Positions 39,901-42,900 of a stretch of DNA of 64,000 nucleotides are shown here, one piece after another. This stretch comes from Escherichia coli O127:H6 str. E2348/69. GTDB taxonomy: Bacteria > Pseudomonadota > Gammaproteobacteria > Enterobacterales > Enterobacteriaceae. The position numbers are program-made. Every line of letters begins with the position of its first letter. Position 1 is the stretch's first letter. The stretch lies in NCBI RefSeq assembly GCF_000026545.1, contig NC_011601.1. One strand, written 5' to 3'.

Positions 39901-42900
39901 GCATAATGAGCCAGGGTTCGCAGGTGGCGGGGTTCAGTACCGATTATTTAATCGATCTTGTCACACGCTTTATTAACTGGCAGATGATTGGGGCCATTTT
40001 TGTTTTATTCGTGGCCTGGTTATTCCTGTCACAATGGATTCGCATTACCGTTTTTGTGGTTGCCATTCTGCTATGGCTGAACGTACTTACCCTGGCGGGA
40101 CCAAGTTTCTCCTTGTGGCCAGCCGGTCAACCAACGACCACTGTAACAACGACGGGTGGTAACGCAGCGGCAACCGTTGCGGCGACGGGTGGCGCACCGG
40201 TAGTGGGTGATATACCCGCACAAACTGCACCGCCAACAACAGCAAACCTTAACGCCTGGCTGAATAATTTCTATAACGCGGAGGCGAAACGTAAATCGAT
40301 CTTCCCGTCTTCGCTGCCCGCTGATGCTCAGCCATTTGAACTACTGGTGATTAATATCTGTTCGCTTTCCTGGTCGGATATTAAAGCCGCCGGATTGATG
40401 TCGCATCCACTGTGGTCGCATTTCGATATTGAGTTCAAGAACTTTAACTCCGCCACCTCCTACAGTGGCCCGGCGGCGATCCGTTTACTGCGCGCCAGCT
40501 GCGGGCAGACTTCGCACACTAATCTGTATCAACCGGCAAATAACGACTGCTATCTGTTTGATAACCTGTCGAAACTGGGCTTTACCCAGCACCTGATGAT
40601 GGGACATAACGGCCAGTTCGGTGGTTTTTTGAAGGAAGTTCGCGAAAATGGCGGCATGCAGAGCGAATTGATGGATCAAACAAATCTGCCGGTTATTTTG
40701 CTGGGCTTTGATGGTTCGCCGGTTTATGACGATACCGCCGTGCTTAACCGTTGGCTGGACGTTACCGAAAAAGATAAAAACAGCCGTAGTGCCACGTTCT
40801 ACAACACGCTTCCACTGCATGACGGCAACCATTATCCGGGCGTCAGCAAAACAGCGGATTACAAAGCGCGGGCGCAAAAATTCTTTGATGAACTGGACGC
40901 CTTCTTTACTGAACTGGAGAAATCGGGTCGTAAAGTGATGGTGGTCGTGGTGCCGGAACACGGCGGCGCGCTGAAGGGCGACAGAATGCAGGTATCTGGT
41001 CTACGTGATATCCCTAGCCCGTCTATCACAGACGTCCCCGTTGGGGTGAAATTCTTCGGCATGAAGGCACCACATCAGGGGGCTCCGATTGTCATCGACC
41101 AACCGAGCAGCTTCCTGGCTATCTCCGATCTGGTGGTTCGCGTTCTTGATGGCAAGATTTTCACCGAAGACAATGTTGACTGGAAAAAACTCACCAGTGG
41201 GTTACCACAAACAGCACCGGTCTCTGAGAACTCAAATGCAGTAGTTATTCAATACCAGGATAAACCGTACGTTCGCCTGAACGGCGGCGACTGGGTGCCT
41301 TACCCGCAGTAAGAACGAATAAATATCCTCCGGCATAGCCGGAGGTTTTTCAAATGCGCCTATAAGACTCTCTTACCTGCCGCGCCCTAACAGGCGCACA
41401 CGATCTGACATTTGCATCCAACTTCGTTACTTACGGCCCGTAAACGGGCTGCCCGGATAGGGAATCGATAACTGCTCTCCCATTTTATCCTCTTCAAGCT
41501 GGTGCTTTATGTAATCCTGTATCTTCGCCGTGTTCTTACCCACCGTATCGACGTAATACCCTCTGCACCAGAACTCCCTGTTCCTGTACTTGAATTTCAA
41601 ATCACCAAACTGCTCGTAAAGCATCAGACTGCTTTTCCCTTTCAGATATCCCATAAAGCCGGATACGCTCATTTTGGGCGGGATCTCCACAAGCATATGG
41701 ATATGATCTGCACAGCATTCAGCTTCCAGAATCCGTACACTTTTCCACTCACACAGCTTTCTCAAAATACAGCCTATTGCTCTACGCTTCTCTCTGTAGA
41801 ACACCTGTCTTCGGTATTTTGGCGCAAATACTATGTGATATTTACAGTTCCATCGGGTGTGCGCTAAGCTCTTTTCGTTCCCCATTGGGACCCCCTTTTG
41901 ATTTCTTGTTTGACACTTGCAGTTGCCAGACCGCAAGGTGTTTTAACAAATCAAAAGGGGTTTTAATAACTGGCTCAAAGCTGAAAGCTTTCCGGACCCC
42001 CCAGCCTAGCTGGGGGTTTTCTGTGCACAAAAAGGCCGCAGAGTTTCCCCCTGCGGCCTGATCCGGGCGCAAATTGCCATTACGGCAGCCTGACGCCCGC
42101 ATGACACGTTACTTCCGCTTATTCAGCCAGTTCACGATCATACTGGCAAGAATGCCAGCAATGACCGGAGCCGCTAAATCATGCCAGAAGGCCATGCCCA
42201 GTTCTGCGAGCGTCATATAGCCGCCTGTGTTGTAATGACAACGTTTCGCGGCTATTCTTGAGTGGTCTAGGTTCAAGATTAGCCCCCGTGATGTTGTCAG
42301 GTGCATACCTGCAACGTGCGGGGGTTTTCTCTCTCCAGCAACCAATGCCACCAGGGATTAAGCCCCCGCAACATTGCGCCTCACCGGAACCTTTCCGGCT
42401 TGCCGCTGATTCTACGACTGTTTTTCTGCTCCGGAATCCATCACTTCTTCACTCTGTGCTGCGCATTCCGCAGAATATTATCCGCTTGCAACCGTTGCAT
42501 TTTTCTTACGAAAAAGGCCGCAGAGTTTCACCTCTGCGGCCTGGTCCGGGCGCAAATTGCCATTACGGCAGCCTGGCGCCCGCATGACACGTTACTTCCG
42601 CTTGTTCAGCCAGTTCACGATCATACTGGCAAGAATGCCAGCAATGACCGGAACCGCTAAATCATGCCAGAAGGCCATGCCCAGCTCTGCGAGCGTCATA
42701 TAGCCGCCTGTGTTGTAATGACAACGTTTCGCGGCTATTCTTGAATGGTCTAGATGCAAGAATGGCCCCCGTGATGTTGTCAGGTGCATACCTGCAACGT
42801 GCGGGGGTTTTCTCTCTCCAGCAACCAATGCCACCAGGGATAAAGCCCCCGCAACATTGCGCCTCACCGGAACCCTTCCGGCTTGCCGCTGATTTTACGA

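What the first reader, a model, noticed from the sequence alone, without database searches (positions are those of the whole stretch)
41318..42028. IS200-type element inserted immediately 3' of bcsG, next to the ldr/rdl repeats
A 152-aa HuH Y1 transposase gene is flanked by two structurally similar hairpins (CCTCCGGCATAGCCGGAGG and CCCCCAGCCTAGCTGGGGG), and there are no terminal inverted repeats, which fits the IS200/IS605 family. The element sits between the bcsG stop and the ldr terminator, where K-12 has no insertion sequence. The hairpin at its high-coordinate end could block transcription running into or out of the element.
Basis: partly seen in the sequence, partly recalled or inferred. 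Interest (0 to 1): 0.4.

Follow-up and report, generated by a model that had tools for sequence, protein, structure and literature searches.

The report
Ordinary IS200C insertion after bcsG
This is an intact, already annotated copy of the small insertion sequence IS200C, inserted at the end of the ldrD terminator's T-run just downstream of bcsG in an E. coli O127:H6 (E2348/69-type) chromosome; it is a textbook example and not a new kind of element.

Summary
Comparison with three IS-free strains, including K-12, shows a clean 711-bp insertion at 41318-42028. It lies between the bcsG stop codon (41310-41312) and the ldrD terminator hairpin (42033-42059). Both hairpins (41327-41345 and 41998-42016) lie inside the insert and are absent from the empty sites.

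The 152-aa ORF (41427-41885, minus strand) is a Y1 HUH transposase (Pfam Y1_Tnp 1.7e-37; NCBIfam transpos_IS200 6.7e-43). RefSeq annotates it as the IS200C transposase in E2348/69. There are no terminal inverted repeats and there is no tnpB.

One addition: the left end abuts the last T of the ldrD intrinsic terminator. Across 110 distinct IS200/IS1541 junctions, the 5' flank reads TT(N)TT and follows a hairpin in 84%, against 12% at matched control sites. The element's own right end finishes with TTATT.

The element is already known. Interest is low.

The parts
41318..42028 (-). IS200C element, 711 bp. On the tnpA strand it runs 5'-GTGCACAG...ATATTTATT-3'.
   Evidence: The insertion is 711 bp relative to the empty sites. 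It is 100% identical to the annotated IS200C copy of E2348/69. The 709-bp core 41320-42028 is unambiguous. Assigning the extra TT to the right end rests on RE ATATTTA being followed by TT in 63 of 63 copies.
41327..41345 (-). Right-end (RE) subterminal hairpin: 8-bp stem and 3-nt loop, 9 nt from the element end. On the + strand it is followed by T5 and looks like an intrinsic terminator facing bcsG.
   Evidence: RNA fold -15.5 kcal/mol, z -4.35. DNA fold -10.0 kcal/mol, z -4.19. Absent from the empty sites.
41427..41885 (-). tnpA, 152 aa plus stop codon: a Y1 HUH transposase. The HUH motif is H61-I-H63. The catalytic Tyr is inferred to be Y125 (YIKHQ).
   Evidence: Pfam PF01797 1.7e-37. NCBIfam NF033573 145.9 bits against a cut-off of 55. 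PDB matches 2ec2 1.2e-22, 2a6m 1.1e-18 and 2xm3 4e-16. RefSeq protein WP_000526113.1.
41892..41960 (-). [quoted passage not shown]
   Evidence: Inverted repeat I1, 16-nt arms, 94% complementary. Fold -38 kcal/mol, z -3.95. Matches the published IS200 nt 69-138.
41876..41965 (+). Inferred art200 (STnc490) antisense RNA gene, about 90 nt, starting at element nt 153/154.
   Evidence: Mapped from the published 5' ends at nt 153/154 and the 90-nt length. The region is covered by Rfam RF01405 at 142.1 bits. No expression data exist for this copy.
41895..42018 (-). Interval matching Rfam STnc490 (left-end hairpin plus tnpA 5'UTR).
   Evidence: RF01405, 142.1 bits against a gathering score of 56, E 3.1e-30, full-length model.
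41998..42016 (-). Left-end (LE) subterminal hairpin, which is also the bidirectional transcription terminator of IS200 (element nt 13-31).
   Evidence: RNA folds -17 kcal/mol (minus strand) and -19.3 kcal/mol (plus strand). Its published function is described.
42029..42059 (-). Insertion target: the ldrD intrinsic terminator (hairpin 42059-42033, then T5 at 42033-42029 on the minus strand). The LE begins immediately 3' of the last T.
   Evidence: Terminator scan. Fold -25.8 kcal/mol. Same hairpin and T5 in the empty sites.
41310..41312 (+). bcsG stop codon, intact, 5 nt upstream of the insertion.
   Evidence: The BcsG protein is identical (WP_000191555.1) in the occupied strain E2348/69 and the empty strain A25.

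Best explanation
This is an intact copy of IS200C, a member of the IS200 group of the IS200/IS605 family that carries tnpA only.

Shown here: it is a 711-bp insertion that is polymorphic among E. coli strains. It encodes a Y1 HUH transposase, has no terminal inverted repeats, and carries one 8-bp/3-nt-loop hairpin close to each end.

Established for the family (IS608 and ISDra2 biochemistry): TnpA binds the subterminal hairpins of one DNA strand, the 'top' strand, which has the same sense as tnpA. It cuts that strand at both ends, releases a single-stranded circle and pastes it 3' of a short target sequence in single-stranded DNA. The usual target is the lagging-strand template, and no target duplication is made.

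Inferred for this copy: the target was the T-run of the ldrD intrinsic terminator (GGCCGCAG..CTGCGGCC-TTTTT|). The element's own right end finishes with TTATT, which fits the TT(N)TT consensus found 5' of the left end in 110 related junctions. An AAAA tract sits immediately 5' of each hairpin foot and is a plausible 'guide', as in IS608.

Expression is kept low by devices documented for Salmonella IS200 and conserved here base for base in position. These are the LE hairpin as a bidirectional terminator, a 5'UTR stem that hides the Shine-Dalgarno sequence, and the antisense RNA art200.

Local consequences, all inferred: bcsG and ldrD coding sequences are untouched. ldrD keeps its hairpin and T5. 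bcsEFG transcripts now meet the RE hairpin followed by U5 about 15 nt after the stop codon.
For: The insertion boundaries come from three empty sites. Transposase family is supported. RefSeq annotates this exact copy as IS200C. There is no tnpB and there are no terminal IRs. Rfam STnc490 scores 142 bits. LE landmarks at element nt 13-31, 69-137 and ATG 144 match the published values of 12-34, 69-138 and an art200 start at 153/154.

The target rule rests on several results. In 7 of 7 distinct E. coli loci the LE abuts the T-run of a co-oriented terminator. In 110 unique junctions from at least 15 species, position -5 is T in 109 of 110, -2 in 109 of 110 and -1 in 110 of 110. A hairpin lies upstream in 92 of 110, against 397 of 3221 matched TTT[ATG]TT sites (Fisher p = 1.6e-61). 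RE ATATTTA is followed by TT in 63 of 63 copies.

The plus strand has negative GC skew along the whole window. The tnpA strand is therefore the lagging-strand template, as expected for this family.
Against: Nothing here shows that this copy transposes or is transcribed, and IS200 is notoriously dormant. Which end owns the two extra T's cannot be decided from sequence, so a 709-bp element with a 2-bp TT duplication fits equally well. One locus shows +3 T relative to K-12. The guide/target pairing is only an analogy with IS608. The consensus promoter scan found no sigma-70 promoter in 41100-42400, which agrees with the published weak promoters but gives no positive support. The Rfam hit is on the tnpA strand, whereas the literature places STnc490/art200 antisense to tnpA. 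The hit therefore identifies the interval, not the transcript.
Confidence: 0.95

Rival explanations
1. The copy is structurally intact but effectively immobile. Its present-day role is as a source of regulatory RNAs (art200 and a processed 5'tnpA RNA) and as a pair of portable terminators between the convergent genes bcsG and ldrD. This is compatible with the main explanation rather than exclusive of it.
For: IS200 transposes extremely rarely, and its 5'UTR-derived RNA regulates host genes in Salmonella. The LE/5'UTR region here matches the Rfam model in full. At the same junction in four other E. coli lineages, the IS copies differ from this one by 8-12 of 709 nt. That is about as much as the flanking bcsG DNA differs (6-8 of 500 nt), so the insertion may be old and vertically inherited.
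Against: The ORF, both ends and the catalytic motifs are intact. Matches to the element occur at 7-8 places in E2348/69-type chromosomes and at up to 35 places in other E. coli genomes, which argues for mobility on evolutionary time scales. No trans targets are known in E. coli.
Confidence: 0.35
2. The bcsG-ldrD terminator is a recurrent hot spot. On this view the 25 genomes carrying IS200C there result from several independent insertions, not from one ancestral event.
For: The junction is identical to the base in five lineages that differ in flank sequence and in ldr copy number (1, 2 or 3). The site is a perfect hairpin followed by T5, which fits the target rule. Only 25 of 5426 genomes are occupied.
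Against: IS divergence tracks flank divergence, as expected for one old insertion followed by losses or recombination. A target-specific element always gives the same junction, so junction identity does not discriminate. No strain phylogeny was built.
Confidence: 0.4
3. The low-coordinate hairpin is the chromosomal bcsG terminator and the high-coordinate hairpin is chromosomal sequence, so the mobile unit is smaller than claimed.
For: On the + strand the 41327-41345 hairpin is followed by T5 and sits 15 nt after the bcsG stop, so it looks like a gene terminator.
Against: Both hairpins are absent from all three empty sites. Both travel with the element to unrelated loci and to other genera.
Confidence: 0.01
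4. The gene is a REP-associated tyrosine transposase (RAYT), or part of an IS605-type element that has lost tnpB.
For: There is a weak NCBIfam match to REP_Tyr_transpos (31.4 bits). RAYTs share the same fold superfamily.
Against: That match is far below its cut-off of 80, while transpos_IS200 scores 145.9 against a cut-off of 55. The gene lies inside a discrete 711-bp mobile unit and is not flanked by REPs. There is no tnpB remnant, because tnpA and the two structured ends fill the whole element.
Confidence: 0.01

Closest known systems
IS200C of E. coli (the ISfinder name used by RefSeq/PGAP) and IS200 of Salmonella enterica
   Same: This is the same element. It is 100% identical over 711 bp to the annotated IS200C copies of E2348/69, and 2063 E. 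coli genomes hold a match covering at least 80% of it. [quoted passage not shown]
   Different: Nothing of substance differs. Only the insertion site is rare, occupied in 25 of 5426 complete E. coli genomes.
IS1541 of Yersinia pestis (IS200 group)
   Same: The LE and RE hairpins are identical, the RE terminus ATATTTATT is the same, and the element has the same habit of sitting after a hairpin and T-run.
   Different: The first bases of the LE differ (GTGCC against GTGCA). The core is 708 bp against 709 bp, and there are scattered substitutions. IS1541 is present in dozens of copies, including head-to-tail tandems.
IS608 (Helicobacter pylori) and ISDra2 (Deinococcus radiodurans), the mechanistic paradigms of the IS200/IS605 family
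   Same: They have a homologous Y1 HUH TnpA (PDB 2a6m 1.1e-18, 2xm3 4e-16). They share subterminal hairpins, the absence of inverted repeats, and insertion 3' of a short specific sequence that resembles the RE terminus (an inference for IS200C).
   Different: They carry tnpB, and their hairpins are imperfect. Their targets are TTAC and TTGAT. IS200C has perfect 8-bp stems and a T-rich TT(N)TT target that is associated with an upstream hairpin. Its biochemistry has not been done.

Membership tests
IS200/IS605 family | Encodes a Y1 HUH single-strand DNA transposase (TnpA) | tested here: met
   Pfam Y1_Tnp 128.7 bits against a cut-off of 23. NCBIfam transpos_IS200 145.9 bits against a cut-off of 55. 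The HUH motif DHIHMLV aligns with DHIHLFV of PDB 2ec2.
IS200/IS605 family | No terminal inverted repeats | tested here: met
   The inverted-repeat search over 41250-42100 found no repeat pairing the two termini. The termini read GTGCACAG... and ...ATATTTATT.
IS200/IS605 family | Subterminal hairpins at both ends on the same (top) strand | tested here: met
   CCCCCAGC-TAG-GCTGGGGG lies 12 nt from the LE tip. CCTCCGGC-TAT-GCCGGAGG lies 9 nt from the RE tip. The two stems differ at two stem positions, and both differences keep the pairing.
IS200/IS605 family | Insertion 3' of a short specific target with no target-site duplication | tested here: inconclusive
   The LE always follows TT(N)TT (110 junctions). 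The insert adds 2 T's relative to the empty sites. These can be read either as the element's own RE terminus (no duplication) or as a 2-bp duplication.
IS200/IS605 family | Single-stranded 'peel and paste' transposition, with the top strand on the lagging-strand template | not testable with these tools
   Only the orientation is consistent. The tnpA strand is the G-rich (leading-sequence) strand and so the lagging-strand template (GC skew).
IS200 group (IS200, IS200C, IS1541) | tnpA only, about 0.7 kb, no tnpB | tested here: met
   The element is 711 bp with a single 152-aa ORF of a known family.
IS200 group (IS200, IS200C, IS1541) | [quoted passage not shown] | tested here: met
   The hairpin is at nt 13-31 and the stem at nt 69-137. 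Rfam RF01405 scores 142.1 bits against a gathering score of 56. Function in this copy was not tested.
REP-associated tyrosine transposases (RAYT) | Match to the RAYT family model above its cut-off, and flanking REP sequences | tested here: not met
   NF047646 scores 31.4 bits against a cut-off of 80. The flanks are bcsG and the ldrD terminator, not REPs.

The most novel reading that the evidence does not exclude
IS200-group transposases may choose their targets by structure as well as by sequence. An intrinsic terminator (a GC-rich hairpin followed by TT(N)TT) mimics the element's own right end (a hairpin followed by ATATTTATT). Terminators such as that of ldrD would then be preferred, and possibly recurrent, landing pads. 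The external terminator would also add a further shield against read-through into tnpA. The association itself has been reported statistically for the family (bioRxiv 10.1101/2025.07.22.666184). I did not find the explicit TT(N)TT consensus, its match to the RE terminus, or the right-end-mimic idea in the literature I could search.
Probability: 0.35. Interest if true: 0.35.

Novelty: already known. Interest (0 to 1): 0.1.

Why it matters
It matters little for discovery. IS200C is a catalogued element, and this copy is annotated in the E2348/69 reference genome.

The practical value is in annotation. The 3' ends of bcsEFG and ldrD transcripts in this strain are bounded by IS-borne terminators. 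The strain also carries one more potential source of art200 and 5'tnpA RNAs next to a type I toxin-antitoxin locus.

The side result may be useful to people who predict IS200/IS1541 insertion sites, or who use these elements for strain typing. That result is TT(N)TT after a hairpin in 84% of 110 junctions against 12% of matched sites, with the RE terminus TTATT fitting the same consensus. It also gives a concrete hypothesis for biochemistry on a transposase that has never been reconstituted.

Tried and rejected
1. I tried to read the primary IS200 and IS1541 structure papers (PMC146608, PMC106867) and the 2015 family review by DOI. None is held. Statements about older target-site observations therefore rest on memory and are marked as such.

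2. The consensus promoter scan over 41100-42400 found nothing. The published tnpA and art200 promoters are known to be poor consensus matches. I give only an inferred art200 promoter: TTTACA at 41841-41846, an 18-nt spacer, and TAAGCT at 41865-41870.

3. I first assumed that the LE hairpin terminates art200. Mapping the published 5' end (nt 153/154) and the 90-nt length puts its 3' end at about 41965. That is just after the long stem and TTTT, so I dropped the idea.

4. I tried to settle the 2-nt end ambiguity with more empty sites. Two loci give +2 T, one gives +3, and one is too diverged. The question remains unresolved.

5. The Rfam hits to Ysr202 (26.6 bits against 315) and to sok (below 30 bits against 59) are far below their gathering scores, and I disregarded them.

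6. The RAYT and IS605-remnant readings were rejected on family cut-offs and on element size.

Full report
**What is in the sequence.** The window around 41318-42028 carries bcsG on the + strand, ending with TAA at 41310-41312. A minus-strand ORF follows, whose ATG-initiated form is 152 aa (41427-41885). Two copies of the ldr/rdl type I toxin-antitoxin unit lie beyond it. Each has a perfect 8-bp stem and a 3-nt loop. On the tnpA strand they read CCCCCAGC-TAG-GCTGGGGG and CCTCCGGC-TAT-GCCGGAGG. The two stems differ at two stem positions, and both differences keep the pairing. As RNA they fold at -15.5 to -19.3 kcal/mol and as DNA at about -10 kcal/mol. The inverted-repeat search over 41250-42100 found no repeat that pairs the two termini.

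**Origin of the window and boundaries of the insert.** A 2-kb query spanning the site is 100% identical to E. coli O127:H6 (NZ_LT827011.1) and matches strain E2348/69. In E2348/69, RefSeq annotates the ORF as 'IS200/IS605-like element IS200C family transposase' between bcsG and ldrD. Only 25 of 5426 complete E. coli genomes carry the element at this site.

Three IS-free strains (A25, an ST131 strain and K-12 MG1655) read ...gcagTAAgaacgAAAAAggccgcagag... across the junction. The window reads gaacgAA-[41320 taaatatcc ... tctgtgcac 42028]-AAAAAggccgc. The insert is therefore 711 bp: a 709-bp core plus two A's (TT on the tnpA strand) whose side cannot be read from the sequence. K-12 has an 86-bp bcsG-ldrD spacer with no IS.

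**Identity of the element.**
- The protein hits Pfam Y1_Tnp (1.7e-37).
- It hits the NCBIfam equivalog transpos_IS200 (145.9 bits against a cut-off of 55). The RAYT model scores far below its cut-off (31.4 against 80).
- Its solved relatives are the Sulfolobus IS200 transposases (2ec2, 1.2e-22), IS608 TnpA (2a6m, 1.1e-18) and ISDra2 TnpA (2xm3, 4e-16).
- The HUH motif (H61-I-H63, DHIHMLV) aligns with that of 2ec2.
- By the alignment offset to IS608 Y127/Q131, the catalytic Tyr and the metal-site Gln are Y125 and Q129 (YIKHQ). This is an inference.
- The element has no room for tnpB.
- 2063 of 5426 E. coli genomes hold a match covering at least 80% of the 711 bp. Among the 3094 genomes with any match, the number of places per genome has a median of 1 and reaches 35. 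The E2348/69-type records have 7-8 places.

**Internal anatomy compared with published IS200.** I number from G at 42028 as nt 1.
- The LE hairpin occupies nt 13-31.
- A 16-nt-arm inverted repeat (41892-41907 / 41945-41960) occupies nt 69-137.
- The tnpA ATG is at nt 144, preceded by AAGGGGGU.
- Ellis et al. 2015 (PMC4513863) describe for Salmonella IS200 a bidirectional rho-independent terminator at nt 12-34. [quoted passage not shown]
- Ellis et al. 2017 (PMC5435999) state that the terminator stops about 85% of upstream transcripts, and that the 5'UTR is processed into a regulatory RNA.
- Rfam RF01405 (STnc490) matches 41895-42018 in full at 142 bits.
- The 5'UTR stem folds at -38 kcal/mol, z -3.95.
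- By this mapping art200 would span about 41876-41965 on the + strand, which is an inference.
- The Rfam hit lies on the tnpA strand although the literature places STnc490 antisense. I take the hit as identifying the interval only.

**The insertion site.** On the tnpA (minus) strand, the LE begins immediately after GGCCGCAGGGGGAAACTCTGCGGCC-TTTTT. This is the ldrD intrinsic terminator (fold -25.8 kcal/mol). I then looked at IS200C copies in other contexts. In seven distinct E. coli loci, the LE abuts the T-run of a co-oriented terminator and the RE is followed by TT(T). The loci are:
- bcsG/ldrD;
- a phage tail gene;
- the MgrR sRNA next to mgtT;
- rspR/ydfZ;
- a plasmid;
- wzzB/hisI;
- uspE/ynaJ.

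K-12 empty sites at two of these loci (mgrR, bcsG-ldrD) again show +2 T. The uspE site shows +3, and the rspR site is too diverged to score.

**A wider test of the target rule.** A scan of one genome per species with the LE motif returned 120 loci. They come from Yersinia pestis (IS1541, 69 loci), Serratia, Citrobacter, Vibrio, Brenneria, Pectobacterium, Kluyvera and others.
- Among 110 unique LE flanks, the bases before GTGC are T at -5 (109/110), T at -4 (99/110) and variable at -3 (T 63, A 29, G 12, C 6). They are T at -2 (109/110) and T at -1 (110/110).
- A perfect hairpin (at least 5 bp, at least 3 G-C pairs) ends within 14 nt of the LE in 92 of 110 flanks.
- By group, this holds for 50 of 66 flanks in Y. 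pestis and 42 of 44 in the other species.
- Among all 3221 TTT[ATG]TT sites in the same loci, only 12.3% have such a hairpin (Fisher p = 1.6e-61).
- The RE motif ATATTTA is followed by TT in 63 of 63 copies, after which the composition decays to background.
- Head-to-tail IS1541 tandems read ...GGAGGATATTTATT|GTGCC....

The simplest reading, by analogy with IS608 and ISDra2, has three parts. Second, both cleavages occur 3' of a TT(N)TT motif. Third, the AAAA tract immediately 5' of each hairpin foot is the guide. This is inference. A 709-bp element with a 2-bp TT duplication is not excluded.

[quoted passage not shown] From memory, Odaert et al. 1998 found IS1541 copies downstream of co-oriented genes, but I could not retrieve that paper. 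An IS1541 between pheL and pheA in Yersinia (PMC3082878) fits the same habit.

**Orientation and local consequences.** GC skew is negative on the + strand across the whole window. The minus strand, which is the tnpA or 'top' strand, is therefore the lagging-strand template. This is the orientation favoured by this family, according to established work on IS608 and ISDra2 cited in PMC5027513.
- bcsG is intact. The BcsG protein has the same accession in occupied and empty strains.
- ldrD keeps its hairpin and T5.
- On the + strand, the RE hairpin followed by T5 sits 15 nt after the bcsG stop and scores as a terminator. bcsEFG transcripts probably end there. In the empty site they would reach the ldrD hairpin, which has no T-run on that strand. 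This point is an inference.
- Any ldrD read-through meets the LE terminator.

**History at this site.** Four other lineages carry the element at the identical junction. They have 1, 2 or 3 ldr copies and different flank alleles. Their IS copies differ from the window's copy at 8-12 of 709 positions, which is similar to the flanking bcsG divergence of 6-8 of 500. This fits either one old insertion or repeated use of a preferred target, and I did not resolve it.

**Verdict.** The element is an ordinary, already catalogued IS200C copy, so novelty is 'already known' and interest is low. The only mildly new material is the explicit TT(N)TT-after-hairpin consensus and its match to the element's own right end. 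That remains a hypothesis for biochemistry.

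Noticed in passing
window 42029-42995 (ldr CDS 42109-42216 and 42592-42699, minus strand; rdlD 42265-42330 and 42748-42813, plus strand): The ldr/rdl type I toxin-antitoxin unit is present as two tandem copies with a 483-bp period. K-12 has one copy at this locus, and ST131 and several other strains have three. The second copy has the same hairpin and T-run terminator (about 42512-42545) but carries no IS.
   Followed up: partly
window 44463-45482 (minus strand) and downstream: A HipA-family toxin gene, with a HipA N-terminal-domain gene and an HTH gene in the E2348/69 annotation, follows yhjV. 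In K-12, dppF follows yhjV directly. This looks like a strain-specific toxin-antitoxin insertion.
   Followed up: no
L005 (E. coli F8704-2, NZ_CP050998.1 236916-238226): An IS200C copy sits immediately after the terminator T-run at the position where K-12 annotates the MgrR sRNA. In that strain the overlapping small gene mgtT is annotated as truncated.
   Followed up: partly
L024, L025, L027, L072 (Yersinia pestis NCTC5923): There are head-to-tail tandem IS1541 copies with the junction ...GGAGGATATTTATT|GTGCC.... One copy appears to have inserted right after the right end of another. That junction is also the sequence expected for the excised circle.
   Followed up: partly
hits H21 (E. coli FY26) and H35 (GPEC1258): FY26 shows two adjacent IS200C tnpA genes under one match. 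GPEC1258 has an additional IS3-family element and a second IS200/IS605 transposase at the bcsG-ldr locus. Neither was inspected.
   Followed up: no
window 41895-42018: The Rfam STnc490 model matches the tnpA-sense strand. The literature describes STnc490/art200 as antisense to the tnpA 5'UTR. The family's strand may be a curation question.
   Followed up: no
window 41310-41350 (+): There is a fragmentary Rfam match to Yersinia sRNA Ysr202 (26.6 bits against a gathering score of 315) over the IS right-end hairpin. I did not examine why.
   Followed up: no
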